Below are positions 9,227 through 53,051 of a DNA stretch of 64,000 nt, piece after piece. This DNA is from Mytilus galloprovincialis. Taxonomy: Eukaryota. Position 1 is the stretch's first letter; the number at the start of each line of letters is the position of its first letter. Under the pieces are notes generated by a model. The model made no database searches and was not told the DNA's origin. It saw nothing but the letters and a program-made list of their open reading frames with translations. Where the stretch lies: NCBI RefSeq assembly GCF_965363235.1, contig NC_134847.1:70038935-70102934 (forward strand), given 5' to 3'. A program made the translations under genes and the position numbers.

Positions 9227-9272
9227 TGGAACAACGAAAATCAAGGGACGACAATTGTGGTCTCGGACCTAA

Positions 9273-27505: not shown

Positions 27506-29136
27506 ATGAATGAATTTATGTTTGCAGATGTTTTATCAGAATTACCTGATAGTCTTGTGAAAGAGATGTTGAAAAAGAAAAAAAATGATGATGTATGTCT
27601 TGATGAAGGAGTTATATCAGAAGTACCTATGTTTCCTGTAATAGATGAAAGTGAAATGGGGACTTCTACAGAAATCAATGATGATGAAAAGGAGAATGAA
27701 AAAAATGATGAAATTGTATTCGAGAGTTTGGACCTTTCGGAAATCACCAATAGTAGTTATTGTAGTTGTTCTATAAATAAACAATATGAAGACAAATATT
27801 TGTACAAAGAAGACCAAATAGTTTACTTGCCTAATACCGTAGAAGCAACAATAAACAAAGACAAAAAGACTGATATCCATAAAGAAATTTCTGTCAACAG
27901 TAGTTCTTTAAAAAGCTCTAAGGTAAATGAAATGTATGATTCTTCGGCTTTGTCCATGATTGACTTACCACCTTTGTCAATGGATGACTTTGAAGAAAAA
28001 CAAGACGGTAGTTTCACTAAGAATGGTAGTTTTTTACGGTTGTGTACTGAAACATCTATCAACAGGGTTTCAGAGGTAGACACTTATGTTTCACATGTAG
28101 GTCATTGCACAGGTCACTATGAGGATAATTCTATCAGAGAAAACAAGGTATGGTGGGTTCCTAATTATCAAATCATACCAATTACAAAGAATGATGCGGT
28201 ATACAGTTCTGATAAATTATCACAAGCTTTTGACAGTAACAAGAGTGAAAAAAGCAACATTTCAACTATAAGTTCCGGATGCTGTAGTATAATCAGTAAT
28301 AAACTGGATGTTCATATTTGTCAATATAAATGTCTATCCTCAAACGTACATTTTGAAGAGTCTGTTTTTTCAAACAAGGGCGTAGTTGATCTACAAAAAA
28401 GGCAAGCAAATAAATCAATAAATAAAAAATATTCTAATGGAGAAGAATATTTACAGAAATGTAGAAAACATCATGATATTGCTAAGATTGTAAAAACCAC
28501 TTTGAAAGAGTTAGCGATGAAAAGGGTAACTGAAATAACTTTAACATCAAAATGTAATCGAAAGAAAAAAAAGCGAAGGATATCAAGAAGAAAACTTCGA
28601 CGCATTATATTTTCTAATCGAATTAAATCATCAAGGTCTCTTCAAATACAAGTAAGACCTGTTGAACATTCACCTCAGCTAATAACAACTTCTAGTGAAG
28701 CAAACACTAGTCATCCAAATCACAATGGAACAATTTTGAGTCTACAACAACAAATTTCAGTTCAAAGTGTATTACCAGTTCACAATATGTCAAATTATAT
28801 CAGAACTGATGGGTCATCTGATTTGGTCACCGGGTCATCATTCACAACGCCATCTGTGACATCTTCAAGTTCTTGGACTAGCTACCTCAATAGTTTGTCG
28901 ATGGGATATGAATACAGTGTTGAGAAAAAGATGCAGTACGAATGGCTGAGAGTACAATCTTACCAGAATTTTCCAGCTACCTGCCATGCTAGTCCCTTAC
29001 GTTTAGCTAGAGCTGGTTTCTTCAGTACTGGTATTATTGATGAGGTTTTATGTTTCAGCTGTGGGGTCAAATACAAAAACTGGAAGAAAAAGGATAATCC
29101 TATTGAAGTTCACCATAGAATATCGCCAGATTGTCG
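27506..29136 (+). CDS. IAP-family exon 1. A 544-aa ORF with a long acidic, Ser-rich N-terminal region, a basic NLS-like stretch (KCNRKKKKRRISRRKLRRI) and a C-terminal BIR domain complete through its last zinc-ligand Cys.
   Basis: ..YEWLRVQSYQNFPATCHASPLRLARAGFFSTGIIDEVLCFSCGVKYKNWKKKDNPIEVHHRISPDC matches the BIR signature R.x.T/S-F-x-x-W/F-P...AGF.Y.G..D.V.CF.C-x16-H-x6-C. The ORF ends at the donor TGTCG|gtaaat, phase 2, and TAA follows if the donor is not used. Confidence 0.8.
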
Positions 29137-30178
29137 GTAAATATTTGTTGTAAAATTATTGAAGATGGTTTTTTTTTTAATTTCTGTATTTTACTTATAA
29201 TGAACTTTTATTTTCTACAGAAAAGTTAGGTCTATTTTTATTTAAGACTTATATATATATATATACTTCTTTATGCTCAAATCAAATGCAAAAGGACAGT
29301 ATCCAAAGCTAATTTGGGCATTTTTTGTTTTCCTCATTTTTCATATTTCTTTAAATGTGTTTTGCAATTAATTTTAATTAAGATACAGTCTGGGGTTAAT
29401 TTAGGCATTACTTCAACTTGGAATGTCGTGGAATGTTTTGAAACTTGGAAAGAAGTGGATGTGTCTGCTCACCAAAAACATCTGAATAAATAAGTTTGAT
29501 TTGATTTTCTTTGGAAGTCAGCATAAAACTTTTACATATACACTTGCATCAGCTAGAGAATGCATTCTATAGAACCCCTTATGTTTTTCTGTGTAATGGT
29601 TAACTTTCGTTTTAAATTTTGCTTAATGATCAATATAAACAGTTTCATAATTTTATCACAATCTTAGTTATTTCAATTTGAATGTCAACTAAATTTGGTC
29701 TGTTGAAAAATGTTATGGAGTACTACATTAATAGCAGGTTCTAAAGTACTTTAGATGATATGTTAACTGTATTTTCTGTAAGGCTATCTGGCAGGGCCTA
29801 TTCTTATCTTGACCTGATTTTCCTTTACCATCTCTGGGCTCTTTGACTGCTTCCTTCACCAATAAAAACTACTTGCCACGAAATAGCACAGTAGTTTTTA
29901 AAGTGGCGTTAATAAAACAAAATCAACCAATCATTTATCAGTGATGATGGTAAGTTTTTGCAATTCAAGTATTATAAGACCTTGATCTTCAACATAAAAT
30001 TGATTTATAATTAATAGAACTGCAACGTTTATTTCTTAGTGATCTCTTTAATCACCTTTTGCAGAGCTTAGTTACACAATATGATAATAAATTGGTCCTT
30101 TTGATGATATAGCTTTTTAGTCTCAAGCTTTGCTAAGCAACACATTGTATTTGAATAAAACAATTTTGTTTTTGATAG

Positions 30179-30285
30179 GATGGTAAATGGTAGAGAAACA
30201 ACGAATATCCCAATTATTTCAGTAATCAACAGAGAAGCTGCAGACAATCCTCAGCAAGAGGCAAGCCAAAGACTAGTGATTGATA
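30179..30285 (+). CDS. Candidate IAP exon 2 (107 nt) encoding the post-Cys tail of BIR1 (R-MVNGRETTNIPIISVINREAADNPQQEASQRLVID)
   Basis: Acceptor tttttgatag|G, donor GATA|gtatgt. The entry phase matches the exon 1 donor and the exit phase matches the acceptor at 35990. The peptide resembles the tail of BIR2 (FVRQNKGHRFVEIITKRQAEM) in the same relative position. Confidence 0.4.
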
Positions 30286-33260: not shown

Positions 33261-35989
33261 AACATACAATGTAATACCATTATAAAAAAAATTGTTGTCT
33301 TATAAAAATTGTCACTTGACCAACAGAAAAACCTTACATTTTGTGTACGTCCAATGCATTATTGGACTTGATTTAAGCAAATGACCCTTAGATTCAAGTC
33401 CCTAATATCACTTACTATTGTCAGCGGACCAGATAATCTATCCCACTTCATACAACAATCCTGTTTCCATTGTGGCATCAGTTATTTTGTATTGTGAAGT
33501 CAAAATTTTACAGCAACCTGGGTGATGTCCAGTCATGGCAGACAAATAGCAAAAAGATGTTTAGGAAAACATGACCTAAAACCTCCTTCATATAAGACAC
33601 AAATACATGGAAACCGAATCTTGCTGCTTTAAAATAAGGGTAAAAAGATGAAGTCTTTTTAACTTAAATAAAGGGTGGGGGGTCATTACCATAAGAACAA
33701 CTTTTCTAAAAGATGATTCCACATATATTCATTGTATTTTCAATGAATTATAAATATTGAAGTGTATCTCAGGCATCTGAGAAAAGACTATTGAATTGAA
33801 TCGGTACATCTATACATTTTTGTTCAGGGTCAATCGACATCAATTTGTTGGCCTCTCTAATAGACGTCCAATTTTTAGCTTCTCGAATTGACGTCAGGTT
33901 TATGGCCATATGAAAAGATCCAAACGCCGAGATATTTGGCCTGACATGCTGCATTACATATGGAAATGTCCAAAACAAATTAACAACACTGCAAATTGGG
34001 ACTGAAAAGATTTATACATGTTATACCAACTGAAACTTCGACTGTCTGAGAGAGATGTAAAGACAGTTCTAGGTTAATATGTTCACAACAAATGAAAACT
34101 TTAAATTTGTTGAAAAATATCTAACGAAGTCCAAATTATAATACTCTCAAAAAAGTTAGCTTTACATCTTTATTTTGTCCATTGTTGAAGACTGATTGCT
34201 GCCCTCTATGTGTCCTATATGTCGTTTTGTTTTCTTTGTCATTGGGTCCTGATTGACATATACTCGCATGTAATTTATCAATGTGAATATAAATGAAATT
34301 CGTTAACGTAGAACGACCTTACCCCCTCCCCGTCCTTTTCTAGATAACAATAAGGATGGGGTGGGGGTGTACCTTCGAGTGTATCTCCTTATTTCTTGAT
34401 AGTACTACTGTGATAGTACTATCTACTGTGATAGTAGAGTTTGTTATATCTTTACAACGTCATTACTAGAATTTCAAACTTCTATGACTATACATGTACA
34501 TGTATATATTCGTTTTGTTATTGGTAAATTCGATATGGCAGTATGGTATTTGCGGAATTCCAACGTAAATGCCACGAGTCAATTGAGATATAAAGTATCA
34601 TAAAATTGAGCTGTGTTCATTAAGAAACACATACAAATATACGTTTATCATACAACTCAAAATGTAAACAACCCCTAAAATACAATGTTATATGGAATCG
34701 TCCAACATACATTTATCATACGACTCGAAATGTAAACAACCCCTAAAATACAATGTTATAGAGAATCGTCCATAGCAGATGAAAGACATAGAATTCACGA
34801 ATACACGTCCAAATAATTATGACGTCTTGGAAGGCTATTTCTTCCTGTCGAAGTAAGGCGTCAAAGAAAAAAAATATAATAGCCTTTCAAGATGTCATAA
34901 TTATTTGGACTATCAGTTGGTATGACTGACATTAGATGAAATAAAAATAGATATGTCAGCTAATAAAATATTCAATAGTTTTTTGTTGGTTGAAATGTCC
35001 TGAAATGTGATGGGTTTATGCAGCACATGTATCCCTTTACCAGTTTACTGGCTTCAGTTTGAAAAATAGACTACAGTAGAGACTAAATGGGGACTAAATG
35101 TGTACAAACCAGACATCCAACTATGTTGTAGAAAATGTGATCATCAATTTATCAAAAATATATACACAGAGAACAATATATTTCACAATACATATGCATT
35201 AATCCAAATTTACATCCATTCGTACGGTCTCAATAGAAGAATTTCCCGCGGAAATATCATGTGATATAAACATGGAATTTTCCACACCGATACAGGTGAA
35301 ATACGTAGAATAACAATTGTGGACACAGCAATGAGATCAGATATAAGACCCTCATGAGCTCGGTGTAAAGTAAAAAAAATGTAAAAATCAATTATTAAAT
35401 AAATTTGTTCGATTAACCTTGAAGTGAAGACTAATAAAAATTTGCGTGTATAGAGTGAGCCCCCTAAATTAAATAATACTGTGTTCTTGACGACTTCCCA
35501 CCGCGATGATCGATAGAAAAGATATTTTACTATATAGTATGTTAAATAATAAAAAAATGAACCTTATACTTTCAGACACGATTTTAAGAGAAAACATTCA
35601 ATTCTCTTTTATATATTTTTACATATTTCAGACTATTAATCTTTCAGATAACAAATATCGTGCAAAGTTAGTAATCTCATAGCAACAGTCATAGGAATAC
35701 ATAATCTTTTGTTTTTGCTTAATAGATAATACAAATTATAGATAATACAAATTGTCTGATAGTATTATGTTTTTGTAGTCAAAATCGAATTTAATGATTA
35801 TGTTAACAAATAATTAATTAATAATAAAATTCAAATTAAGCTTCAGACTGAAGACAGATTTAACTATTTGGTTAAATTGAATTATTTCTTTTATTTCCTG
35901 CAATTTTACCTATTATTACTTCAACAAATAAAACTAACTTCCTTGATATAATTCTTATTCTTACTTTGATTTAGATCTCCTGATATCAG

Positions 35990-36531
35990 GAATACATCAA
36001 AATGAAGATGTTAGCATTCAGACAACTGAAGGAGCCACAAACAGATCATTGACAAGAGAGGACATACAAATCTCCAATGATGCAGACACTACTTCTCAGT
36101 CAGTAAATCGAACACAGCAACCTCATATAGTTCACCATGCATTGAGACCATCAGTAGTTGACAGAAACCATTCTGTATTAGATGGAGAACAGAACAGACC
36201 TGCACACAGAGACATTGGTGAGGATTTGGGTATAACATTAGAAAGACCAATGTATCCAGCTTATGCTCAACTGAGTGTTAGGGTCCGTACATTCCAGGGC
36301 TGGCCTGGATACTTAGATCAGGCCCCTAGAGATATGGCACTGGCAGGATTCTTCTATGCTGGCTACAATGACTATTGTAGATGCTTCTTTTGTGGAGGAG
36401 GCTTACGTGACTGGGATGCTGGCGATGATCCTTGGGTAGAACATGCAAGATGGTTTTCTAAGTGTTCATTTGTTAGACAAAACAAGGGCCATAGATTTGT
36501 GGAAATAATTACAAAGAGACAGGCTGAAATG
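35990..36531 (+). CDS. IAP exon (module A, copy 1), 542 nt, with an intact BIR domain
   Basis: Acceptor ctcctgatatcag|GA, phase 1. Donor GCTGAAATG|gtaataac, phase 0. The ORF 36049-36549 lies within it. ..RVRTFQGWPGYLDQAPRDMALAGFFYAGYNDYCRCFFCGGGLRDWDAGDDPWVEHARWFSKCSFV has C-x2-C-x16-H-x6-C all present. Confidence 0.8.
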
Positions 36532-38791
36532 GTAATAACAATAAATTAAATCTAATCATAAAAGGTGATACTTTTATCCCACATTGAACATGAAATATGC
36601 ATCATGTTTTTTATTTAATTCCAAACTTGGGAATTCAGTCTTTTTCAGCAAAATTTAATAAAAACAGTACCTATTTCGTGTAATCGATTCCTCCATCAGA
36701 TTTCAACCCTATACATTGAACCTTCACACATATATTGCACAAGTTTTGAAGTTTTGTAGTTTTTATGGAATTGTTTGAGTGTTGCTATATTTTTCTGAAT
36801 GTAAGAAAATAGTCATATTTCTGCAAAGTCTACAAATCAAAATGGTACCAATTGTGTATAACAGAATGATTGCATTTATTTTATATTATTGTAGCTGTGC
36901 ATTTCTATTTTGTAATTATTTGATCAAGTAAGATGAGCTGGTTCATAGCATTCAACAGTAATGTCATTATTACATGTTTGTGTCACAAAATGACTGAATG
37001 AAATAGCTGAACAAATATCAATGTGACAACATTTACAGAAAATGAGTTCATAAAGGAAAAAAAAGAAGAAGAAAAATGATATGATTGATTTGCATTATTC
37101 ACTGTGAGGGTTAACAGTTGCTTTAACATTTAAAAAATGTTATCGGGCCTTAATATATTTCAAGTTATTTAATTTGTCATTGGTTATCTTCTTTTACAAT
37201 TTAAAGTACAAAGTTATTTCCCCTCAACTTTGCAAAATTTGTGTTGGAACAACATTATTTTTGTAGCAAAGTTAATTTTTTATTCAAATCGTGAGCTTGA
37301 AAAAAAAAATTTGTCTAAGTTTTCAACATGAACCAAAGCGCTTTGAAAATACATAAATATTTGGAATGTAACTTGCGGTCATGATGGTTTCACTGAAACT
37401 TTTATGTCTGAGAAATGCAGGCTATCATTTTGGTTAAACGAAAGACTGACTTATCTTTAAAAGAGCTTATAGTGTACTCTTATAAAGCGATTCCCATTGC
37501 CTCACATTGGGGCTTTGAAAGATATCCATTTATGATGAGATTGTGACCTTTATTTTTTAATATGTATGCTCTTTTTTCCGTTTGAATGGTTTTACACTAG
37601 TCATTTTTTGAGCCCCTTTGAAGCTTGCTGTTCGTGTGAGCCAATGCTCCATGTTGAAAACTGTACTTTGACCTATAATGGTTTACTTTTACAAATTGTG
37701 ACTTGAGCAACATGAGCAACACGACGAGCGCCACGTGTGGATCACCTGAAATCCTCCATAGTTTTTGGTAGGGTCCATGTTGTTGTTGTACCCCTATTTG
37801 TGACAGTTTGTTCACTCATCATTGTCAATTTAAGGGAAATTGATGCGACTGTCGTACAAGTGGTTTATTTAGGTGTTATACCACCATTTATTTCCCCTAT
37901 TAGTCTTTGTCTCCCCTTATTTAACTGGTGTATATGCTTTACTATCCACGTAACCTCAACTATACACAATATTCTATAGGAAACCCAAATAAAAACAATA
38001 ATGGTGTTGTGAAATACCCAAGACAAATGTTAATGAAACAGAATTGTTTTACTGCAATAAAATATAAGGATTAGTTACCTACAACTGTCAAATTAAAGGG
38101 AATATTTTTTTACCTATGTTCGTATAAAACCGGATGTGACGTACCATGCTTTAGTGGTATTACACCTTTGGCGCTATACAACCAGATTCAATCCACCATC
38201 TTCTACATTTGAAAATGTATGTCAGGTATGATAGTTGTTGTCCATTCGTTTGATATATTTTATCATTTGATTTTGAAATTTGATGAGGGACTTTCCGTTT
38301 TGAATTTTCCTCGGAGTTCAGTATTGTTGTGATTTTATATTTTGGATGGAAAGTTGTCTCATTGGACATTTTGAAAAATTAATAACATCCACCATTGTTA
38401 TAGCAAAACATAGAATTTTGGGTCTAACAAATTATAAAAGCAATTAATTTGTTTAAGCATTTATTTTTATGATGAATATGATATCTCGAAGAAATAAGTT
38501 TAAATAAACTTTTGAAAAGAGAAAAGGCCTAACCTCTCCATTTGACAAGTGACAATCCATTGAAAAATATAGTTTATGTCACTTTGATTAATACTTTTCA
38601 AATACTTAGGGAAAACACTAAAACAATATCCATCTGCTAATTATTATCTCCCATGAAACTGGTGGATGTATCGTTCCTCGTACAGTCAGAATGTTGGCAG
38701 GCGACAAGTTTTAATCATAATGTGACTACCAGAATATGAAGTCTTACAGGTTCAATATTGATATATTTAAAACTATCATTGTCAATTTCAG

Positions 38792-38918
38792 GAGGCATCT
38801 AATAATTCATCAGATATTACTGAGAATCACACAGCAGTGTCAAATTATGGCGCAATCGAAGATAGAATCTACATAAACTCAGAAGAAACAACACCAACAC
38901 CAATGACCACTCAATCAG
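38792..38918 (+). CDS. IAP linker exon (module B, copy 1), 127 nt: EASNNSSDITENHTAVSNYGAIEDRIYINSEETTPTPMTTQS
   Basis: Acceptor tgtcaatttcag|GAG, phase 0. Donor CAATCAG|gtagat, exits with 1 base. Identical copy at 42653-42779. The diverged but ORF-preserving copy at 45677-45803 supports coding status. Confidence 0.6.
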
Positions 38919-39636
38919 GTAGATTACTAAATAACCCATTTTGTTGTAACAAATAAACAATAAATGTCATGGGTAAGTTCTACAAATTAAATAAGCAAGA
39001 AGCAATCATGGGCTATTAAGAATTCCACTGTGAAATCCCTGTGTTTGATTGGTGTTGAATGGGAACGACATTTTGCCTTTCAACAGGCCACCTACAGACC
39101 ACTCAAAGTGTTCTTGGGTCAGCACATTGAAACCGACGGGAGCTGGTTGTAATTTATAAAATATTGAAAGAGAGAAGGAAAAAAAAAGTTCACATATGAA
39201 AATGAATTCATCATACAAATGAAATGACAAGCGATTTCACCCTTAGAGCAATGGTATATATTTGATCCCACAGAGGAAAGAAATGCATTGTGTTACCAAA
39301 ATATATTCTCTTGAATAAATTACACATGTGTGTCAGCACAGTAGTTTATTTGATGATATTGAACATGTTTTAATTCTTGCAATTGTTCCTTCATGTAATG
39401 TTCTTTTTTACAATCAGCATCCTAAAACGTAATTGTCTAGAGTGTTGAAATATTGTCAAACACGTGTTGCAGTGGTAACCTCTATATGTCATGCTAGTAT
39501 ATAGACGTAAATAAAGTCGGATAAAAACTAATAAAAATGTATACAACTTGTATACAAGTATAGGTTCTGTTAACAATTACTCAATTTTAACTCTAAATTT
39601 AAGATTTCCTGCAATTTACAATACATCAAAATGAAG

Positions 39637-40016
39637 ATGTAAGTATTCAGACAACTGAAGGAGCCATAAACAGATCATTCACTAGAGAAGACATACAAAT
39701 CTCCAATGATGCAGACACTACTTCTCAGTCATTAAATCGAACACAGCAACCTCATGTAGTTCACCATGCAATGAGACCATCAGTAGTTGACAGAAACCGT
39801 TCTGTTTTAGATGGAGAACAGAACAGAACTGAAGATAAAAGCAAGGCAGAGGATTTGGGTATCAGTTTAGAAACACCAAAATGTCAAGATTATGCTCAGC
39901 TGAATGACAGGGTCAGTACATTTCAATGTTGGCCTGGATATTTAGACCAGGCACCAAGGTTTTTTTTATATACAGGATACAATGATCATAAAGGCGATAC
40001 TTTTATATCATATCAA
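39637..40016 (+). pseudogene. Degenerate BIR-like exon (module A*, copy 2). It keeps RVSTFQCWPGYLDQAPR..FFLYTGYND but lacks the CxxC/His/Cys zinc ligands. An open frame runs to a GTATGT donor, so it could be a pseudo-exon or an alternative exon.
   Basis: Relative to copy 1 it has a 15-bp in-frame deletion (DMALA). After YND, ~100 bp are replaced by ~330 bp that includes atcataaaggcgatacttttat, which resembles the intron just 3' of exon A. The candidate acceptor GAAG|AT and donor TATCAA|gtatgt keep phases 1 and 0. The 3' BIR remnant at 40299-40396 is left in an incompatible phase (gctgaatg|gt). Confidence 0.5.
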
Positions 40017-42652
40017 GTATGTTGAAAGATGCCTAATGTTGTTTTTTTTAAATGACCAATATTTTGAATCAAATGAAATTACACATCAGAGTTTAAAAAA
40101 AACTTAAAAAATACATATTAACCAAATATCATTCGTACAAGGATTCTACACTTGTATGAGAGTTTTAAAAAAGCAAGGTTAAATGTCTTTGTTTAAATTA
40201 ATTCTAAAGCAGTTTCATCTGCAGCTGCTGGTAATGGAGGTTTAAGTTGTATAAAATTGACTAAAATGTCAAATGTGTCCAAGTTTCTTTCCTTGGGTAG
40301 AACATGCAAGATGGTTTTCAAAATGTCCATTTGTAAGACAAAACAGAGGTCATAGATTTGTGGAAACAATTACAAAGAGACAGGCTGAATGGTAATAACA
40401 ATAAATTAAATCTAATCATAAAAGGTGATACTTTTATCCCACATTGAGCATGAAATATGCATCATGTTTTTTTTTATTTCCAAACTTGGGAATTCAGTCT
40501 TTTTCAGCAAAATTTAATAAAAACAGTACCTATTTCGTGTAATCGATTCCTCCATCAGATTTCAACCCTATACATTGAACCTTCACACATATATTGGACA
40601 AGTTTTGAAGTTTTGTAGTTTTTTATGGAATTGTTTGAGAGTTGCTATATTTTTCTGAATGTAAGAAAATAGTCATATTTCTGCAAAGTCTATAAATCAA
40701 AATGGTACCAATTGTGTACAAAAGAATGATTGCATTTATTTTATATTATTGAAGCTGTGCATTTCTATTTTGTAATTATTTGATCAAGTAAGATGATCTG
40801 GTTCATAGCATTCAACAGTAATTTCATTATTACATGTTTGTGTCACAAAATGACTGAATGAAATAGCTGAACAAATATCAATGTGACAACATTTACAGAA
40901 AATGAGTTCATAAAGGAAAAAAAAAGAAGAAGAAAAATGATATGATTGATTTGCATTATTCACTGTGAGGGTTAACAGTTGCTTTAACATTTAAAAAATG
41001 TTATCGGGCCTTAATATATTTCAAGTTATTTAATTTGTCATTGGTTATCTTCTTTTACAATTTAAAGTACAAAGTTATTTCCCCTCAACTTTGCAAAATT
41101 TGTGTTGGAACAACATTATTTTTGTAGCAAAGTTAATTTTTTATTCAAATCGTGAGCTTGAAAAAAAAATTTTGTCTAAGTTTTCAACATGAACCAAAGC
41201 GCTTTGAAAATACATAAATATTTGGAATGTAACTTGCGGTCATGATGGTTTCACTGAAACTTTTATGTCTGAGAAATGCAGGCTATCATTTTGGTTAAAC
41301 GAAAGACTGACTTATCTTTAAAAGAGCTTATAGTGTACTCTTATAAAGCGATTCCCATTGCCTCACATTGGGGCTTTGAAAGATATCCATTTATGATGAG
41401 ATTGTGACCTTTATTTTTTAATATGTATGCTCTTTTTTCCGTTTGAATGGTTTTACACTAGTCATTTTTTGAGCCCCTTTGAAGCTTGCTGTTCGTGTGA
41501 GCCAATGCTCCATGTTGAAAACTGTACTTTGACCTATAATGGTTTACTTTTACAAATTGTGACTTGAGCAACATGAGCAACACGACGAGCGCCACGTGTG
41601 GATCACCTGAAATCCTCCATAGTTTTTGGTAGGGTCCATGTTGTTGTTGTACCCCTATTTGTGACAGTTTGTTCACTCATCATTGTCAATTTAAGGGAAA
41701 TTGATGCGACTGTCGTACAAGTGGTTTATTTAGGTGTTATACCACCATTTATTTCCCCTATTAGTCTTTGTCTCCCCTTATTTAACTGGTGTATATGCTT
41801 TACTATCCACGTAACCTCAACTATACACAATATTCTATAGGAAACCCAAATAAAAACAATAATGGTGTTGTGAAATACCCAAGACAAATGTTAATGAAAC
41901 AGAAATGTTTTACTGCAATAAAATATAAGGATTAGTTACCTACAACTGTCAAATTAAAGGGAATATTTTATTACCTATGTTCGTATAAAACCGGATGTGA
42001 CGTACCATGCTTTAGTGGTATTACACCTTTGGCGCTATACAACCAGATTCAATCCACCATCTTCTACATTTGAAAATGTATGTCAGGTATGATAGTTGTT
42101 GTCCATTCGTTTGATATATTTTATCATTTGATTTTGAAATTTGATGAGGGACTTTCCGTTTTGAATTTTCCTCGGAGTTCAGTATTGTTGTGATTTTATA
42201 TTTTGGATTGAAAGTTGTCTCATTGGACATTTTGAAAAATTAATAACATCCACCATTGTTATAGCAAAACATAGAATTTTGGGTCTAACAAATTATAAAA
42301 GCAATTAATTTGTTTAAGCATTTATTTTTATGATGAATATGATATCTCGAAGAAATAAGTTTAAATAAACTTTTGAACAGAGAAAAGGCCTAACCTCTCC
42401 ATTTGACAAGTGACAATCCATTGAAAAATAAAGTTTATGTCACTTTGATTAATACTTTTCAAATACTTAGGGAAAACACTAAAACAATATCCATCTGCTA
42501 ATTGTTATCTCCCATGAAACTGGTGGATGTATCGTTCCTCGTACAGTCAGAATGTTGGCAGGCGACAAGTTTTAATCATAATGTGACTACCAGAATATGA
42601 AGTCTTACAGGTTCAATATTGATATATTTAAAACTATCATTGTCAATTTCAG

Positions 42653-42779
42653 GAGGCATCTAATAATTCATCAGATATTACTGAGAATCACACAGCAGTG
42701 TCAAATTATAGCGCAATCGAAGATAGAATCTACATAAACTCAGAAGAAACAACACCAACACCAATGACCACTCAATCAG
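42653..42779 (+). CDS. Linker exon B, copy 2, identical to 38792-38918
   Basis: Lies at offset 3861 from copy 1 with the same splice sites. Confidence 0.4.
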
Positions 42780-43497
42780 GTAGATTACTAAATAACCCAT
42801 TTTGTTGTAACAAATAAACAATAAATGTCATGGGTAAGTTCTACAAATTAAATAAGCAAGAAGCAATCATGGGCTATTAAGAATTCCACTGTGAAATCCC
42901 TGTGTTTGATTGGTGTTGAATGGGAAACGACATTTTGCCTTTCAACAGGCCACCTACAGACCAGTTAAAGTGTTCTTGGGTCAGCACATTGAAACCGACG
43001 GGATCTGGTTGTAATTTATAAAATATTGAAAGAGAGAAGGAAAAAAAAAGTTCACATATGAAAATGAATTCATCATACAAATAAAATGACAAGCGATTTC
43101 ACCCTTAGAGCAATGGTATATATTTGATCCCACAGAGGAAAGAAATGCATTGTGTTACCAAAATATATTCTCTTGAATAAATTACACATGTGTGTCAGCA
43201 CAGTAGTTTATTTGATGATATTGAACATGTTTTAATTCTTGCAATTGTTCCTTCATGTAGTGTTCTTTTTACAATCAGCATCCTAAAACGTAATTGTCTA
43301 GAGTGTTGAATTATCGTCAAACACGTGTTGCAGTGGTAACCTCTATATGTCATGCTAGTATATAGACGTAAATAAAGTCGGATAAAAACTAATAAAAATG
43401 TATACAACTTGTACACAAGTATAGGTTCTGTTAACAATTACTCAATTTTAACTCTAAATTTAAGATTTCCTGCAATTAACAATACATCAAAATGAAG

Positions 43498-43877
43498 ATG
43501 TAAGTATTCAGACAACTGAAGGAGCCATAAACAGATCATTCACTAGAGAAGACATACAAATCTCCAATGATGCAGACACTACTTCTCAGTCATTAAATCG
43601 AACACAGCAACCTCATGTAGTTCACCATGCAATGAGACCATCAGTAGTTGACAGAAACCGTTCTGTTTTAGATGGAGAACAGAACAGAACTGAAGATAAA
43701 AGCAAGGCAGAGGATTTGGGTATCAGTTTAGAAACACCAAAATGTCAAGATTATGCTCAGCTGAATGACAGGGTCAGTACATTTCAATGTTGGCCTGGAT
43801 ATTTAGACCAGGCACCAAGGTTTTTTTTATATACAGGATACAATGATCATAAAGGCGATACTTTTATATCATGTTAA
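43498..43877 (+). pseudogene. Degenerate BIR-like exon (module A*, copy 3). It has the same lesion as copy 2, plus an in-frame TAA just before the former donor (..TFISC*).
   Basis: Copy 2 reads tat caa|gtatgt, and here it reads tgt taa gtatgt. This is the ORF 43632-43877. Confidence 0.5.
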
Positions 43878-45676
43878 GTATGTTGAAAGATGCCTAATGT
43901 TGTTTTTTTTAAATGACCAATATTTTGAATCAAATGAAATTACACATCAGAGTTTAAAAAAAACTTAAAAAATACATATTAACCAAATATCATTCGTACA
44001 AGGATTCTACACTTGTATGAGAGTTTTAAAAAAGCAAGGTTAAATGTCTTTGTTTAAATTAATTCTAAAGCAGTTTCATCTGCAGCTGATGATAATGGAG
44101 GTTTAAGTTGTATAAAATTGACTAAAATGTCAAATGTGTCCAAGTTTCTTTCCTTGCTAGCAGATGGTTTGGTGGTAAGGCAGTGGGTACTTATATTCCA
44201 TTATTCCTACAGTTTTTATCCCTGAGATTTGAAACGTTACATATGTATTGCACTTATGATGAAGTTGTGTACCTGTAATTATTATTAATTGTTTGGGGAA
44301 TTTTACTTCATATTCTCAGAATTGAGAGCTTAGTAACTTTCAGCAAAATTAACAAACAAATGGTAACCAGTTTTGTGTAATCAACTTCTCTCATAGTTTT
44401 TAATGCGGCAAAATATATTCTAAATTATTGAATATGTAATAAATTATCTTTTTTTTTACAATTTAAATTACTTAGTAATGACCTCTAAATTATGCCAATT
44501 TTTTGTTGGAACAAATTTTTTTTTTAGCAATGTAGCTAAGCTAATTGTTTATCCAATCCTTGATCTTGAAAAGGTTTTCTAAATGAACAAAAGTGCTTAC
44601 AATTATATACAAATTTGAATTGCAACTTGTGATCATAGGTTTCCTTGAGCTTTAAGGTATTTGAAATACCCACAATTGAAGTGCATTGAAGTCATCAGCC
44701 AACAAAGGCTGACTTTAGAATTTATCGTGTACTCCATAACACGTTTTCTTTTGCCTCACGTTGGGGCTGTTAAAATATATATGATCAAGATTGATAGTCT
44801 AATTATAGCAAAAATGAACATTGTCCTTTAATGATATACTTAGCTCAGGTTTTGGGATTTGTGTGGAATGTTCGGACTCCTTAGAGTTTTTTCATACGAT
44901 ACAAGGTAAAATATTTTGCCCCATAACACCGATTTATTATTTCATATAAGACTTAATAGCTCATAAAAGGTCATCTAACAAAATTTCAGCACATTCTTGA
45001 TTTTCTTTCTTTTTATTTGAGACCCAAATAATACCAATACAAATGAAAGGTAAAAGTCCAAGTCAGCCTTTTCCCGTGATATTGTATACATCACATATCT
45101 CGAAAAGGAGTTCCATGACCTATCAATATTTTTAGCTTATTTTGATCCTTAACTAATACTCTTCTAGCTTAAAGCATCAATTTTAAATTCTTAATTTATT
45201 TAATTTTACCAAACTACATCCTCAATTTTCGATAATGAAAGTTAATTGTGTTCTTTTTGTATTAAAATCATGAGTTGTCAATGTAATCATGTCATTACAC
45301 CAAACAACCTGCTGCAAACATTATATGACATAAGTAGTTTGTTTGAAGCATCATTTTGAAAAAAAAATCAATAATTACCACTATTGTAATTTAAAAGTGT
45401 AAATTTGAGTCTAACAAATTTATAACAGCAAAGAAAGTTGTTAACCATTTATTTTATGATGAATACGATAAGTGGATAACTAACCTTTAAAAAGAGAGAT
45501 GACACAACCTCTCCATTTGTTATGTGACAATCCATTCAAAATAGAAACTGGAGGATGTATTGTTCATGATACAGTCAGAATCTTGTCAGGTGCATACACA
45601 TTTTAAACACAATTGCCAACAGAAGCTATTAGCAGTTCCATATTGACATGATAAGAAATATCATTGTTTATTTCAG

Positions 45677-45803
45677 CAAGCACCTAATTACTCATCAGAT
45701 ATTTCTGAGAACCAAGCAGCAGTGTCAAGTTATAGTGAAATAGAAGAAAGAACCCAAATAAACTCACAAGAAACATCACCAACAACAATGGTCACTCAAT
45801 CAG
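45677..45803 (+). CDS. Linker exon B, copy 3: QAPNYSSDISENQAAVSSYSEIEERTQINSQETSPTTMVTQS. It is ~25% diverged, yet the same length (127 nt) with frame and both splice sites conserved.
   Basis: Acceptor ttgtttatttcag|CAA, donor CAATCAG|gtaggt. No stop codon. Confidence 0.5.
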
Positions 45804-47559
45804 GTAGGTTGTAATATCGTATCATCTTTTTGTGGTAACAAATAACAATCGGTGTCATGGGTAGGTTCTACAAATAAAGTTATCAGGAACAAATAATGGG
45901 CTATTTAGATTGACACTGTTGAATTTGGTGTGTTTGATTAATGTTGAATAGGAACAGACATTTTGCTTTCCAACATGCCTCAAACAGTGCACTCAAAGTG
46001 TTAATAAGATGACATGGGGTCACCACATTGAAATTTCCATACACGTTATAAAAAAGAAGATGTGGTAGGATTGCCAATTAGACAACTGTCCACAAGAGAC
46101 CGCTTTTAACATTAATATTTAGACGGGAGCTAGCTGCATATTTATGTGTATATTGTATTGATAAACAAACATGAAGAAAGAAAGTTCACATAAACATAAT
46201 ATAAAACATAATTCATAACACAGAAGAAATGACAAGCGATTTCACCATTAGAGCAATTGAATACATTGGATTAAACAGAGGAATGAAGTGCAGTGTTTTA
46301 CCAAATTATACTATACTATTGAATAAATTACACATATATGTGTCTGTACAGAAGTTTTATATGTTGATGATATTGAGCATGTTTTAATTCTTGACATTTT
46401 CCTTCAAGTTCAGTTTTTTTCACAATGAGCATATTAAAAAATCTGAAATAAATAAATTGCAATTCTTATGGTCTGTTGTTTTGTGGTTTAGAAGGCACTT
46501 TCAAAGGATTGTGGCTTTTTTTTTTTATCTTTCACTTAAATAGTATATAAAGGAATAATTCACAACATGTCTCTATTAACACTGCATATTAATCAAATTT
46601 AATGAGAATATTTCTATAGTTATGCTGGGGCAAAAGAAAATTTGAGATATATATCCATAGAGTAACAACATTACAAGTTCCATGAAATTTGGTGGTTGTA
46701 CTCTCCTGTATAGCAGGTTATGCAAATAGTATTTTTTAAAGTAATAAGCCTGTACGTTAATAGCTAAATGAAAGTTAAAGTAAAATAATATCTTTAAAAT
46801 TTATCTCGACAATTATGCTTTCTCAGCAACCCTTAAGTTAAACTGTATTATGACTGCGATTTTCTGTATAGGAAACCTAAAAATTGAGGCAACAGAAATT
46901 TTGTCGGTGTCGTCGGCGGCGTCCACAAATATTCACTTTGTGGTTAAAGTTTTTGAAATTTTAATAACTTTCTTGAATATCCTGGATTTCTACCAAACTT
47001 GATCAGAAGCTTGTTTATGTTCATAAGATAGTATCCAGGAGTAAATTTTGTAAAATAAAATTCTGTTTTTTCCGTATTTTACTTATAAATGGACTTAGTT
47101 CTTTTCTGCCAGGAAACATTACATTAACTCTGTGGTTAAAGTTTTTAAAATCTTAATAACTTTCTTAAACTATCCTGGAATTGTACGAAACTTGTCCAGA
47201 AGCTTGTTTATAATCAGAAGATAGTATCCAGAAGTTAATTAGGTAAAAATAAAATTCCGTTTTTCCCGTATTTTCTTACTTTCATACAGTCTGCAGTCAA
47301 AGTTTTTCAAACATTTTAAGATTCATAAACTAACCTTGATTTTTACCAAACTTGGACAGAAGCTTCTGACATTCAAAAGATAGTATTAGTATTAAGAGGA
47401 AAAAATTTATTGATTTTTTTCATAATTTTTGTTGAGTATGTGATTAGCAGCAAAAGTAAGCCAGATACTGGGTTCCGCGGAACCCTTACAAATTTTTTAA
47501 CATATTTCTCCGGTGCTTATTAAGTAGAACAAATTCACACTTAAGATATCACATGTAAA

Positions 47560-47850: not shown

Positions 47851-47857
47851 ACTTTTT

Positions 47858-49904: not shown

Positions 49905-49990
49905 AATCAAATTTATCTGTCTGATTCCGTAGCTGAGGGTGATGCATTTCAGGCTAGTAATCAAGCGATCCGGGTTCGTATCCCGCAAGG
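49905..49990 (+). other. tRNA-like fragment, possibly a SINE head or tRNA pseudogene (..gcgatccgggttcgtatcccgcaaggg)
   Basis: T-arm-like GGGTTCGTATCCC with flanking stems, but no complete cloverleaf could be folded by eye. Confidence 0.2.
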
Positions 49991-51032
49991 GTGAATGTCC
50001 GGTTTAAAAAAAAACAATACCAATATGTAATAACTTGACTTGACTTTAATTTAATTCTAATTTCAAATTGAAAATGCTTTTTTTCCTTGTGACAAAGTTA
50101 ATTGTCTGTCTTGTCTATATTCGTTTATAGAATAATAGAGACATACATGTGAAGATAATCTATTACAAATCGGTAACTAAGGGATGCTGAAGCTGCAAGA
50201 CTTTTGTCTTTCTGTCCTTTAATTGATTTTAGGGATTATAGTGCTGATGCACTCCAGTTGCACAGTTTAGCTACGTTTTTTACCCAAAAGCTCGAAAATA
50301 GCAATTTTGACCCAAATCACCCACATAGCATGTTTGGCTATACAAATTGCTGTTTCTCACATAAATAGACCATACAGGGTTCTTTTTCGTTGAGATGTTA
50401 TTCCTAACATTGTATTTGAATGCTCTGTTGATACTATTTCCATAAATAACTTTCAAAAAAGGACATTTTGTATCGAAATTTTACTATTTTCCGACTATTT
50501 TGTTGTTGTCACGTGACATTGGACTGATTATCACAACATCAAATATGATATTTTTGTTTTTACAAACCTGTCATTAATATTACTGAAAAACTATTGTCTA
50601 TTAAAAGTCTTAGTTCATAAGTCTACTAAGAGTAAAACGAAAGTTATGATTGATTGAAATTTGATCGTTCCTCTGCGGCAAAATTCCACTATTTTTTTAA
50701 AGAGTTTAAAGTAAAATTTATCAGAACACAAAAACATCTATAAAATAGTGAGGAAATAAATAAGATACCCAAACTAAAGATGTGCATTTACTACAATAAA
50801 CGTAATAGGCTAACACTTTTTTATATTTTTTTTAATTTTTTATAAATTGTTAAAATCGATATTCTTATTCAATAAACCATATTAAATTTATTTTGACTCA
50901 AGTTTATACTATATTTACTGTCTAAATTTTCATTAACACTGACTCCAATTTTGTCTTATCTATGAGGTCAATACCTTTCAATAGAAGAACACATTTTAGA
51001 TATTTGTTCAAGTTGTGGTTTAACTTGATAAT

Positions 51033-51177
51033 CAGTGGCGGATCCAGGGGGAGGGGTCCGGGGGTTCGATCCCCCCTTTTTTGGACGATTGATGCATTTG
51101 AATGGGGACCTATGGTTGGAACCCCCTTTATTCTTGGTTGGGAACTCCCTCTTTTTAAAATGGCTGGATCTGCCCCT
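51033..51177 (+). mobile_element. Second full copy of the 146-bp G/C-homopolymer MITE, flanked by ATAAT on both sides (candidate TSD)
   Basis: cagtggcggatccagggggagggg...ggctggatctgcccctg, with left flank gATAAT| and right flank |ATAATg. Confidence 0.6.
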
Positions 51178-51971
51178 GATAATGTAGGTTAAAGGTAGTT
51201 TAAAGTTTACACTTAAGATATCAGTAGTCGCATCCACTTGAAACATTGTACTGTGCACATGTTCATTATAAAATCATGTGTTTAATTTCATGGTTCGCTG
51301 AACATAGAAACGTAAAATGGTAAAGTTTTGGTTTAAGATAAGTGAATGTTTTTGTTTGATTGGACACTAGATGACAAATTCATAACAACCAAATTGACTC
51401 GGCAATTTACATAAATATAGATACAAATAGGCAGACAAGCACATTGTTTGGAGCCCTTTCACTGTTTTACCGATCTGAAAATGATTTTATAAGTGCCAAA
51501 GTCAATAAATTTGTTCTTCCTGCTGGTTCCCTTGATTTTGTTTGATTATCTTTTTTTTCTTCACATTAAAAATTGTTTGCAAAAAACAATTTGATTGGTC
51601 TGCAGTTGGTTGTTTGTAATTCTTGCAGGGCCAAAGTGCTTGCTTATATTCCAAATGCCCTCCCTATTTTAGTATCATTCCAAGTTTTTGGCCCATTATT
51701 TTAGACTCTCACTTTCAAAACATTAACCTAACGTTTATTGTTAATCTTTTCCTGGATATATTCATGATGTATGACGTATATGTCTTATGCATTAAGCAAA
51801 CACCATTCTTAAGTGACTGAAGACTTAAGAATATTCCAAAATTGTAGGTATTCCAAAAACGAAGATAACTTCAATTTTTGCACAGAGGCAATACTTTCAT
51901 TTTTTAGATACCTAGATACTTATACGAAATCATTACATGTATTGAGGTTAATATCACATGTTTGTTTTACA

Positions 51972-52016
51972 GCTACAGCTAGCATATCTGGACAGGCAAG
52001 TGCAATTAATGATAAT
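51972..52016 (+). CDS. Candidate 45-nt phase 1-1 micro-exon (..TASISGQASAINDN) between the linker exons and the RING exon
   Basis: Strong acceptor atgtttgttttacag|CT and donor TAATG|gtaagt. Phases are compatible with the linker exon upstream and the RING exon downstream. Confidence 0.35.
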
Positions 52017-52860
52017 GGTAAGTTATATGTAGAAAAAGCCGCGCCAGAATATAGTTTTACTGATTTATTGAGCAGGATATATATGTATACATTATAAATA
52101 AACGAGAGTTCTTTCTAAATTTGCGTCTTATATCATATTCATTTTTTTATGTAGAAAATGGTAGATGAACTTGCTTTAATTTTATTGCTAGGAAAACCAG
52201 TCGTGTATGACAGTTGCATAAAAGTTCATTATATTGACAACGATGTGTAAACAAAACATGCAGACATTTAGTTAAAATGTCAAAAAGGGGTACAAACATA
52301 TGAATTGATGTTTATCCACCAAAATACTGTAAAGCTAAATACAAACACCATGCAAGAAATAACCTCTTTATAGTTATCAGCAACCATATGATATTCATAA
52401 TATTCATTCATTCATTGACCATATCGTACATTATGAAGCTTAAATAGTGACCAATTTCGGCGGCTCATCCCTACCATTTCGTCCATAGTAGGAAATGCAT
52501 CCATTCACATTATAAAGATTATTCAATGTATAATCCTTCTTAATACTGTGTTCTTGTTATAATAACATGTTTGGAGCATGCCATTGGTACACCTCACATT
52601 CAATTTGTTTTTAAAGAGGGCTAATTACAGTAAACTGAAATAAAAAAATACTTATTTATTTCGATAATTGACTTATTGTAGTAAATTACTGCCATGCCTT
52701 ACGCCTTCTTTGTATTCATGGTTGAAACATTTACTGGTACACGTTTACCTTTATTTTCATGATCTGATAATATACACTCATTTTGTATGTCAGTACTGAA
52801 TATTGTTGAACTCTTAGATTATGACTTTATGTTGCATAACTTTAAACTTGTGTTTTGTAG

Positions 52861-53051
52861 AAGGCAGTTCACTCAAAATGCAAAAAACGAAACAGGGCAA
52901 ATGCAGGACCTGTGATGCAAATAATGTACCTGTAGCATTTTTACCATGTGGACATATATACTGCTGTAACGACTGTACATCTGCAATGCTAAAATGTCCT
53001 ATGTGCAAAGTTGATATTAAACAAGCATTAAAAAGGTACTTCCATACTTGA
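52861..53051 (+). CDS. IAP terminal exon encoding a C3HC4 RING finger (..KCRTCDANNVPVAFLPCGHIYCCNDCTSAMLKCPMCKVDIKQALKRYFHT*)
   Basis: Acceptor cttgtgttttgtag|AA, phase 1. The spacing C-x2-C-x11-C-x-H-x3-C-x2-C-x6-C-x2-C and the short C-terminal tail match the IAP RING (cf. C.ICMD....VF.PCGHL..C..CA.....CP.CR..I...). Stop at 53049-53051. Confidence 0.8.

What the first reader, a model, noticed from the sequence alone, without database searches (positions are those of the whole stretch)
27506..53051. Candidate single IAP gene (BIR1-BIR2-RING) assembled from symmetric, phase-compatible modular exons spread over ~25 kb
Seven exon candidates all have GT/AG boundaries and chain without frame conflict. 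Exon 1 ends on 2 bases and exon 2 starts on 1. Exon 2 ends +1 and exon A starts on 2. Exon A ends in phase 0 and linker exon B starts in phase 0. B ends +1 and the micro-exon 51972-52016 runs +2/+1. The RING exon starts on +2. Every junction predicts a sense codon (R, R, E/A, E). The product would be a long disordered N-terminal region, BIR1, BIR2, an S/T-rich linker and a C3HC4 RING, which is the canonical XIAP/DIAP1-like topology. Alternatively, 27506-29140 could be a separate single-BIR gene ending at the TAA that immediately follows the donor.
Basis: partly seen in the sequence, partly recalled or inferred. Interest (0 to 1): 0.75.

Follow-up and report, generated by a model that had tools for sequence, protein, structure and literature searches.

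The report
Mussel IAP gene with duplicated cassette

Summary
The exon chain is real. With two small corrections it reads as one open frame of 880 aa, or 885 aa with the conserved acceptor. It encodes a long N-terminal region, a type I-like BIR1, a type II BIR2, an S/T-rich linker and a C-terminal C3HC4 RING. The corrections are that the micro-exon is 51973-52017 and that the conserved BIR2 acceptor is 35975, not 35990.

The locus is colinear with Mytilus californianus LOC127725979. It carries the same exons in the same order as single-gene IAP models in M. edulis and M. galloprovincialis.

- The BIR2+linker cassette is tandemly repeated. This gives three interchangeable linker exons and two truncated BIR pseudo-exons. 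It includes a 3.86-kb duplicate that is 98.8% identical.
- The UBA exons found in relatives are lost here, leaving a 45-nt vestige.
- Several other exon chains are also in frame.

The M. californianus annotation splits the locus into a BIR-only gene and a downstream RING gene, and there is no transcript evidence for this species. The join to the RING exon is therefore inferred, not shown.

The modular, phase-compatible exon design of bivalve IAPs is already published (PMC7831173). Interest is low.

The parts
27506..29136 (+). Exon 1. It holds the start codon, a fast-evolving N-terminal region of about 470 aa, and BIR1 (type I-like, CFSCGVKYKNWKKKDNPIEVHHRISPDC). It ends after 2 bases of a split Arg codon, with donor CG|GTAAAT.
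   Evidence: The frame is open for 547 codons. Pfam BIR E=2.8e-17 over model positions 1-67 of 70. It aligns with M. californianus P0001 residues 131-695. dN/dS of the BIR1 part against M. californianus is 0.45. The closest solved domains are BIR1 of cIAP1, cIAP2 and XIAP.
30179..30285 (+). Exon 2. It encodes the C-terminal helix of BIR1 (R|MVNGRETTNIPIIS..) and a short spacer. It starts with 1 base and ends +1.
   Evidence: 80% amino-acid identity to the annotated M. californianus exon. dN/dS is 0.35. Alignments to NAIP, DIAP1, cIAP and XIAP BIR domains continue across the junction. Skipping this exon breaks the frame.
35975..36531 (+). BIR2 exon (type II BIR, [28 protein letters not shown]). 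It ends in phase 0.
   Evidence: Pfam BIR. 79-85% amino-acid identity to M. edulis P0006 BIR2 and 70-77% to M. californianus BIR2/BIR3. dN/dS is 0.26-0.34. Acceptor homology is shown. The closest solved domains are cIAP1 BIR3, DIAP1 BIR2 and ML-IAP.
38792..38918 (+). Linker exon copy B1 (S/T-rich, phase 0 to +1).
   Evidence: 62% amino-acid identity to the annotated M. californianus linker exon. Splice sites are shown.
36429..44156 (.). Recent tandem duplication of a 3.86-kb unit: 36429-40295 against 40290-44156, 98.8% identical. The junction shows TCCTTG microhomology.
   Evidence: Self-BLAST, repeat families D2-D9 and alignment A1. Whether it is a true duplication or a haplotype-assembly artefact could not be tested (searches found nothing).
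39604..40016 (+). Truncated BIR pseudo-exon c2. It keeps the acceptor and the N-terminal half of a BIR. A deletion running into the former intron removed the CxxC..H..C half and the original donor. The new CAA|GTATGT site is in phase 0.
   Evidence: Alignment A1. No Pfam BIR hit. dN/dS against M. californianus BIR3 is 0.82. Including it remains in frame.
40290..40392 (+). Orphan 3' fragment of a BIR exon at the duplication junction. It has a 1-bp deletion before the donor.
   Evidence: (D9).
42653..42779 (+). Linker exon copy B2, 99% identical to B1.
   Evidence: (D2).
43465..43877 (+). Truncated BIR pseudo-exon c3. It matches c2 except that its last codon is TAA.
45677..45803 (+). Linker exon copy B3, the older copy (82% identical to B1/B2 at DNA level). 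It is the only one of the three copies that matches the M. edulis linker exon at DNA level in the BLAST.
   Evidence: The chain through B3 is intact.
46859..46903 (+). Vestige of the second UBA / S-T-rich exon found in relatives. The acceptor and about the first 35 nt survive (..GNLKIEATEIL..), and homology ends there.
   Evidence: Low-stringency BLASTN against M. californianus L003 26469-26513. Three-way alignment A2. No UBA match from tblastn with P0006.
51973..52017 (+). Micro-exon of 45 nt (starts with 2 bases, ends +1), encoding ..TASISGQASAINDN..
   Evidence: It is homologous to the exon immediately upstream of the RING exon in M. edulis L004 (about 16540-16587), with the donor and downstream intron conserved. 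42 of 45 nt and both splice sites are conserved in L002.
52861..53051 (+). Terminal RING exon (C3HC4; CRTCDANNVPVAFLPCGHIYCCNDCTSAMLKCPMC). The stop codon is TGA at 53049-53051.
   Evidence: Pfam zf-C3HC4_3 E=1.5e-11. The nearest relatives among 1.84 billion representatives are P0126, then P0008, P0084 (an oyster IAP) and P0006; P0008 and P0006 are the same proteins that lead for BIR2. dN/dS against the M. edulis RING is 0.16.
53300..53305 (+). First AATAAA downstream of the stop, a candidate poly(A) signal. The evidence is weak because the genome is AT-rich.

Best explanation
The region holds one protein-coding gene of a mytilid mussel, a member of the expanded bivalve IAP family.

- A long, fast-evolving N-terminal region and a type I-like BIR1, both in a large first exon. 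BIR1 is finished by the short second exon.
- A type II BIR2 with the residues of a peptide-binding (IBM) groove.
- A disordered S/T-rich linker.
- A 15-residue micro-exon.
- A RING-HC finger at the very C-terminus.

Inferred function, from what is established for cIAP, XIAP and DIAP1:
- BIR2 would bind N-terminal IAP-binding motifs of caspases or Smac-like antagonists.
- BIR1 would bind signalling adaptors.
- The dimerising C-terminal RING would recruit an E2 to ubiquitinate bound partners or itself.

Inferred history, from the colinear loci:
- The ancestor was BIR1-BIR2-linker-UBA-S/T-RING, as in the M. edulis relative.
- The phase-symmetric [BIR exon + linker exon] cassette was duplicated in tandem. 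M. californianus still has an intact BIR3.
- In this genome a deletion truncated the second BIR.
- A further 3.86-kb segment, running from the 3' end of the BIR2 exon to the intron after the truncated BIR, was then duplicated again.
- The UBA exons decayed.
- Two introns grew by insertion of repeats.

Because linker exons run from phase 0 to +1, only one of the three copies can be used per mRNA without a frameshift.

Shown here: the exons, their phases, the domains, the homology, purifying selection on the BIR exons, and the duplication structure.

Inferred, not shown: the actual splicing, especially linker -> micro-exon -> RING, and the biochemical activity.
For: - The chain is intact.
- Pfam finds BIR x2 and RING.
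- The zinc-ligand patterns CX2CX16HX6C and C3HC4 are present only at these places in the window.
- No other gene-sized ORF occurs in the 64 kb apart from LINE relics. The RING exon therefore has no other BIR partner.
- The locus is colinear with M. californianus, including the upstream flank and the introns.
- The annotated orthologue P0001 uses the same E1/E2/BIR/linker junctions.
- Homology to solved BIR1 domains crosses the E1/E2 junction.
- The M. edulis gene P0006 spans 10 kb as N-term/BIR1, exon 2, BIR2, linker, UBA x2, micro-exon, RING. DNA-level matches to the window appear for E1, BIR2, the linker and the RING exon. The homologous micro-exon was found separately by local alignment.
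- P0008 and P0128 show the same design.
- The nearest homologues of the BIR2 exon and of the RING exon are the same proteins.
- dN/dS is 0.26-0.45 for the BIR exons and 0.16 for the RING against M. edulis.
Against: - There is no RNA evidence. The only same-species contig found (L001) is unspliced genomic DNA.
- RefSeq splits the orthologous M. californianus locus into a 1143-aa BIR-only model that ends by reading into the intron (..RQAEMVNTIS*) and a separate 421-aa RING model starting near the third linker exon.
- The linker -> micro-exon join skips about 6-13 kb containing decayed exons and repeats.
- The linker exons evolve neutrally (dN/dS about 1).
- The RING exon differs from the 87%-identical copy L002 mostly by non-synonymous changes (9 against 3, dN/dS 0.70). 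L002 also has a frameshift just before the stop. This would be compatible with relaxed constraint on the RING in this lineage.
Confidence: 0.7

Rival explanations
1. There are two transcription units, as annotated in M. californianus. One is a BIR-only gene (E1, E2, BIR2, with or without a linker) that terminates by intron read-through or polyadenylation just after the BIR2 exon. The other is a downstream unit, or a dead relic, that holds the linker, micro-exon and RING exon.
For: The M. californianus orthologue is split this way, and its BIR model ends ..RQAEMVNTIS*, which is intron read-through. In the window the same read-through gives MVITIN* with an AATAAA at 36541-36546. BIR-only architectures are common in bivalves (PMC7831173). 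There are hints of relaxed constraint on the RING against L002.
Against: The AATAAA is not conserved in M. californianus or M. edulis, which read AATAAG. M. edulis, M. galloprovincialis and other models join these exons in one gene. A RING-only unit made of linker, micro-exon and RING would have no start codon context or functional precedent shown here. All zinc ligands of the RING are intact and its long-term dN/dS is 0.16. Automated models often split genes at duplicated cassettes.
Confidence: 0.2
2. The main mRNA is longer than the reader's model. It also includes the truncated BIR exon c2 and a second linker exon (E1-E2-BIR2-B1-c2-B2 or B3-micro-RING, 1065 aa), which adds a half-BIR insert.
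For: c2 keeps the conserved acceptor and has a strong phase-0 GTATGT donor, and the chain is intact. A RefSeq model in M. trossulus (P0007) contains degenerate and half BIR modules spliced to a RING.
Against: c2 has no Pfam BIR signal and lacks every zinc ligand. Its dN/dS is 0.82. Its twin c3 ends in TAA, so including c3 would truncate the protein.
Confidence: 0.07
3. 27506-29140 is a stand-alone single-BIR gene that stops at the TAA after the donor.
For: The ORF is closed by TAA at 29138-29140. Pfam BIR covers positions 1-67 of 70 within exon 1 alone.
Against: The TAA is part of the conserved CG|GTAA donor, and four homologues are cut at the same ..CR by ORF callers. Exon 2 continues the BIR fold in frame (CR|MVNG.. 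compared with C.F..G..NI in solved BIR domains). Exon 2 is annotated as spliced in M. californianus, M. edulis and P0128. Its dN/dS is 0.35.
Confidence: 0.03

Closest known systems
Mytilus californianus LOC127725979 (P0001) plus the adjacent downstream RING gene model (locus L003)
   Same: This is the orthologous locus. The upstream flank, exon 1, intron 1, exon 2, the BIR exons, the linker exons and parts of the introns are colinear at 70-89% DNA identity. The splice junctions and phases are the same.
   Different: M. californianus keeps an intact BIR3 and a recognisable UBA/S-T exon, and it is annotated as two genes. The window has a truncated BIR3 that was duplicated again, has lost the UBA exons, and has a 5.7-kb second intron instead of about 0.6 kb.
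Mussel BIRC2/3-like IAPs: M. edulis BIRC2_3 (P0006, locus L004), M. galloprovincialis P0008, and P0128
   Same: They share the same exon order and design: a long N-terminal exon with BIR1, a short exon completing BIR1, a BIR2 exon, a linker exon, a micro-exon and a terminal RING exon. They are the nearest relatives of both the BIR2 exon (79-85% aa) and the RING exon (46-52% aa).
   Different: They carry UBA and long S/T-rich exons between the linker and the micro-exon. The M. edulis gene is compact (10 kb) and has no internal cassette duplication. The N-terminal region is only 42-46% identical.
Bivalve IAP expansion with modular, phase-compatible exons (Song et al. 2021, PMC7831173; Witkop et al. 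2022, PMC8917759)
   Same: The first BIR spans two exons. [quoted passage not shown] The RING lies in one terminal exon. The domain order is TI-TII-...-RING.
   Different: Here the BIR+linker module is seen duplicated inside one gene and then decaying, rather than compared between paralogous genes.
Human cIAP1/cIAP2/XIAP and Drosophila DIAP1
   Same: BIR1 is closest to cIAP and XIAP BIR1 (type I). BIR2 is closest to cIAP1 BIR3, DIAP1 BIR2 and ML-IAP (type II; E-H-x-x-W-x-x-x-C). The RING-HC sits at the extreme C-terminus.
   Different: There are two BIRs, not three. No CARD was detected by Pfam and no UBA exon by tblastn or alignment. The protein has a unique N-terminal extension of about 470 aa. 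Its two-BIR-plus-RING outline resembles DIAP1, but by sequence it belongs with the BIRC2/3-like mussel genes.

Membership tests
IAP (BIR-containing) family | At least one BIR domain with the zinc ligands CX2CX16HX6C | tested here: met
   There are two: 29051-29134 and 36382-36465. Pfam PF00653 E=2.9e-38 with two stretches.
IAP (BIR-containing) family | Type II BIR with peptide (IBM) groove signature (E/Q-H-x-x-W/H-x-x-x-C) | tested here: met
   BIR2 reads ..[12 protein letters not shown]. This fits the criterion quoted from PMC8917759. The best solved matches are cIAP1 BIR3, DIAP1 BIR2 and ML-IAP. Peptide binding itself was not tested.
RING-bearing IAPs (BIRC2/3/4/7, DIAP1) | C3HC4 RING-HC at the extreme C-terminus of the same polypeptide | tested here: inconclusive
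   The RING exon is intact, terminal and in frame with the BIR exons. It is homologous to the RING exon of single-gene relatives. No transcript joins it to the BIR exons in this species, and the M. californianus annotation splits it off.
BIRC2/3- or XIAP-type IAPs | UBA domain between the BIRs and the RING | tested here: not met
   No UBA match from tblastn with P0006/P0008. Only a 45-nt vestige of the second UBA/S-T exon remains. Pfam finds no UBA in the model.
BIRC2/3 (cIAP) type | CARD or death-fold domain | tested here: not met
   Pfam finds no CARD or death-fold hit in the 880-aa model.
Bivalve modular IAP gene structure (PMC7831173) | [quoted passage not shown] | tested here: met
   The E1/E2 split falls after ..DCR. 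The linker exons run from phase 0 to +1. The RING lies in the last exon.
IAP (functional) | Caspase or antagonist binding and E3 ligase activity; expression as one mRNA | not testable with these tools
   This needs RNA data and biochemistry.

The most novel reading that the evidence does not exclude
The triplicated linker exons and the half-BIR exons are not just debris. They would form a cluster of frame-enforced, mutually exclusive or optional cassette exons. The gene could then produce several IAP isoforms: different linkers, with or without a zinc-less half-BIR insert, or RING-less forms through the TAA in c3. That would catch exon-cassette duplication creating isoform diversity within a single IAP gene.
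Probability: 0.08. Interest if true: 0.4.

Novelty: new member of a known kind. Interest (0 to 1): 0.18.

Why it matters
It matters little beyond annotation. It is one more IAP gene in a family already known to be hugely expanded and domain-shuffled in bivalves.

Its modest value is as a clear, datable example of the published idea that a BIR exon plus its following exon moves as a phase-symmetric module. Three states of one locus can be compared:
- M. edulis-type: BIR1-BIR2-UBA-RING.
- M. californianus: an extra intact BIR3.
- This genome: the extra BIR truncated, duplicated again, and the UBA lost.

It is also a warning for gene predictors. Duplicated cassettes and GTAA donors that read as stop codons lead to split or truncated IAP models.

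Tried and rejected
- Looking for transcript evidence through exact-protein look-ups. The same-species Logan contig L001 is colinear, unspliced genomic DNA. The contig carrying the nearest RING (L002) is also genomic.
- Testing whether the 3.86-kb duplication is real or a haplotype-assembly artefact, by looking up ORFs that span or flank the junction. None is on record, so this stays unresolved.
- A third word-indexed protein search with linker+micro+RING returned only one hit, P0126. The exhaustive HMMER search replaced it.
- Pfam on intron ORFs (31864-32259, 32396-32620, 47528-47848, 50926-51189, 50968-51258 minus strand) found nothing. The RT-like look of 47528-47848 therefore rests only on reading the sequence.
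- A conserved intronic poly(A) signal after the BIR exon, as an explanation of the M. californianus truncation, was rejected. The AATAAA is not conserved.
Shifting by one base fixes it.
- The species could not be named. It is closest to M. californianus, at only 70-89% DNA identity, and no annotated protein is identical.
Full report
**What is in the sequence.**
The window is AT-rich (about 31% G+C). Stop codons occupy 6.7% of codons, and only two open stretches of 200 codons or more exist in all six frames. They are 27497-29137 (547 codons) and 35947-36546 (200 codons). Both carry a BIR zinc-ligand pattern CX2CX16HX6C. The only complete C3HC4 pattern in the window is at 52902-53006 on the same strand. 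No other gene-sized ORF is present, apart from LINE reverse-transcriptase relics near 57-58 kb.

The exons and their boundaries are as follows:
- E1 27506-29136, donor CG|GTAAAT.
- E2 30179-30285.
- BIR2 exon 35990-36531.
- Linker exon 38792-38918.
- Micro-exon.
- RING exon 52861-53051.

All have AG/GT boundaries and the stated phases. Two corrections are needed.
- The micro-exon is 51973-52017, not 51972-52016. With the written coordinates the frame breaks. Corrected, the chain is an intact 880-aa ORF.
- A second in-frame acceptor lies 15 nt upstream at 35975 (TTTGATTTAG|AT). It has the better pyrimidine tract and is the site homologous to the annotated M. californianus acceptor. With 35975 the product is 885 aa.

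Pfam finds BIR twice (E=2.9e-38) and zf-C3HC4_3 (E=2e-9 for the whole model; 1.5e-11 for the RING exon alone).

Self-comparison shows that 36429-40295 and 40290-44156 are 98.8% identical over 3.87 kb. An older layer of duplication, at 77-86% identity, links several pairs:
- 35970-36329 with 39599-39958 and with 43460-43819.
- 38367-39427 with 45352-46439.

The repeated unit is the cassette [BIR exon + following linker exon]. This has three consequences.
- There are three linker exons with the same phases (0 to +1) and good splice sites: B1 38792-38918, B2 42653-42779 (99% identical to B1) and B3 45677-45803 (82%).
- There are two truncated BIR pseudo-exons, c2 39604-40016 and c3 43465-43877. 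They keep the conserved acceptor and the N-terminal half of the domain. A deletion reaching into the former downstream intron removed the whole CxxC..H..C half and the original donor (alignment A1). c2 has no Pfam BIR signal. Its dN/dS against the intact M. californianus BIR3 is 0.82.
- A 3' fragment of a BIR exon sits at the recent duplication junction (40290-40392) and carries a 1-bp deletion. The junction shows TCCTTG microhomology.

Several chains are therefore open:
- BIR2 followed by B1, B2 or B3.
- BIR2-B1-c2-B2 or BIR2-B1-c2-B3 (1065 aa).
- A chain that skips the micro-exon.

Other chains break the frame:
- Two linker exons in a row cause a frameshift.
- Including c3 introduces a TAA.
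- Skipping E2 or skipping all linker exons also breaks the frame.

**Comparative evidence for the splices.**
The best database hit is M. californianus LOC127725979 (P0001, 1143 aa). Its locus, L003, is colinear with the window through the upstream flank, exon 1 (up to 89% DNA identity), intron 1, exon 2, and the BIR and linker exons and their introns. It is therefore the orthologue.

That RefSeq model uses the same junctions:
- ..SLDCR|MVNGRETTNIPIIS..
- ..SLLTD|DFLPSTIHQNED..
- ..RQAEM|QASNNSSD..

Independently, alignments of the predicted protein to solved BIR domains continue across the E1/E2 junction. Examples are NAIP ..PECEFLQGKDVGNIG, and the cIAP1/2 and XIAP BIR1 domains. Exon 2 therefore encodes the end of the BIR1 fold.

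The TAA that closes the exon-1 ORF is part of the conserved CG|GTAA donor. ORF callers cut four homologues at the same ..CR residue.

**Comparative evidence for the 3' half.**
M. edulis BIRC2_3 (P0006, locus L004) is a 10-kb gene. Its exon order is N-term/BIR1, exon 2, BIR2, linker, two UBA/S-T exons, a short exon, and RING. DNA-level matches to the window appear in the same order for exon 1, BIR2, the linker (to B3) and the RING exon.

The window's micro-exon is homologous to the short exon just upstream of the M. edulis RING exon. The shared core is ..GGACAGGCAAGTG.., and the donor ATG|GTAAGTT.TATATAGAAAAA is conserved. P0008 (M. galloprovincialis) and P0128 show the same design.

In an exhaustive HMMER search of 1.84 billion representatives, the RING/linker query hits these in order:
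- first, a genomic copy (P0126);
- then P0008, the oyster IAP P0084, and P0006.

P0008 and P0006 are the same proteins that are nearest to the BIR2 exon. Both ends of the proposed gene thus trace to one ancestral gene.

**Loss of the UBA region.**
The UBA exons of the relatives are missing here. tblastn finds none. Only the acceptor and about 35 nt of the second UBA/S-T exon survive, at 46859-46903. Their joint loss keeps the frame, because the linker ends +1 and the micro-exon starts with 2 bases.

**Selection.**
dN/dS values were computed with the Nei-Gojobori method on codon alignments.

| Comparison | dN/dS |
|---|---|
| BIR1 part vs M. californianus | 0.45 |
| Exon 2 vs M. californianus | 0.35 |
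| BIR2 exon vs M. californianus or M. edulis | 0.26-0.34 |
| RING exon vs M. edulis | 0.16 |
| Whole exon 1 | 0.79 |
| Linker exons | about 1 or more |
| Pseudo-exon c2 | 0.82 |
| RING exon vs L002 (9 non-synonymous, 3 synonymous changes) | 0.70 |

L002 is an 87%-identical genomic copy from another sequencing run. It also has a 1-bp insertion just before the stop. The numbers are too small to decide whether the RING is under relaxed constraint in this lineage.

**What argues against a single gene.**
- There is no transcript evidence. The only same-species contig (L001, 99.9% identical) is unspliced genomic DNA.
- RefSeq splits the M. californianus locus. The BIR model ends by reading into the intron after BIR3 (..RQAEMVNTIS*). 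A second, 421-aa RING-containing model starts about 0.8 kb upstream of the third linker exon and runs off the fetched locus.
- In the window the same read-through gives MVITIN* with an overlapping AATAAA. That hexamer is not conserved in the two other species.

I read the split as more likely an annotation effect of the duplicated cassette than biology, but I cannot show this.

**Mechanism.**
BIR1 fits the type I-like pattern (..EVHHRISPDC) and BIR2 the type II pattern (..[10 protein letters not shown]), by the criteria quoted in PMC8917759 and by the nearest solved domains. From established knowledge of cIAP, XIAP and DIAP1, I infer the following. None of it was tested here.
- BIR2 binds IBM peptides of caspases or antagonists.
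- BIR1 binds adaptors.
- The C-terminal RING dimer acts as an E3 ligase.

**Relation to what is known.**
The massive IAP expansion in bivalves, and domain shuffling within it, are published (PMC7831173, PMC8917759, PMC13159474).
- The first BIR lies over two exons.
- The RING lies in a single terminal exon.

This locus is a member of that known kind. It lacks the UBA and CARD of cIAPs, so it should not be called BIRC2/3 sensu stricto, although its nearest relatives carry that label.

**Verdict.**
This is an ordinary gene and interest is low.

Noticed in passing
window 36429-36528 vs 40290-40389: The first 100 nt of the recent 3.86-kb duplicate, which is the 3' end of the BIR2 exon, are only 92% identical, while the rest is about 99%. 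The non-functional copy keeps the family consensus (CPFVRQNRGHRFVE). The functional exon has CSFVRQNKGHRFVE. This could be gene conversion or fast change in the used exon.
   Followed up: no
window 9267-15717 and 19002-20332: Upstream of the gene there are two arrays. One is a tandem array with a period of about 1.29 kb, five copies at 98.5-99% identity. The other is a 21-bp satellite of about 63 copies.
   Followed up: no
window 4837-5368 and 6235-6358; L003 22548-23997; L004 4092-4545: A tandem repeat family of about 147 bp is shared between this window, the inside of the M. californianus IAP locus (between BIR3 and the third cassette) and the upstream flank of the M. edulis gene.
   Followed up: no
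window 30410-35518: Intron 2 is 5.7 kb here and about 0.5-0.6 kb in M. californianus and M. edulis. The extra 5.1 kb contains a dispersed repeat (30756-31022, which also occurs at 453-702 and 56169-56400) and no Pfam-recognisable ORF.
   Followed up: partly
window 47528-47848 (+) and 57216-58471 (+); L003 27763-31482: There are LINE-like relics. One is an RT-like ORF fragment in the large intron before the micro-exon, which has no Pfham hit and rests on reading the sequence only. The other is a pair of RT-like ORFs (YADD motif) downstream of the gene. M. californianus has a near-complete LINE (endonuclease plus RT ORFs) in the corresponding intron.
   Followed up: partly
protein hits P0011, P0055, P0101, P0118: One BIR+RING protein, 40% identical to the query, is annotated in the bacterium Endozoicomonas sp. 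Mp262. Several BIR proteins from ENA metagenome contigs of up to 1.7 Mb also appear. This may be host-to-symbiont gene transfer or host contamination.
   Followed up: no
protein P0007 (M. trossulus LOC134688515 isoform X2): A RefSeq model contains a degenerate BIR without its zinc ligands, and a half BIR spliced directly to a RING exon. Decayed BIR cassettes are thus being annotated as coding in other mussels.
   Followed up: no
L002 (SRR29152242) vs window 51903-53978: This is an 87%-identical genomic copy of the micro-exon, intron and RING exon region. It has a 1-bp insertion that removes the normal stop and extends the RING tail by about 20 residues, and it lacks window 53245-53777. It could be another species, a diverged haplotype or a paralogue.
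   Followed up: partly
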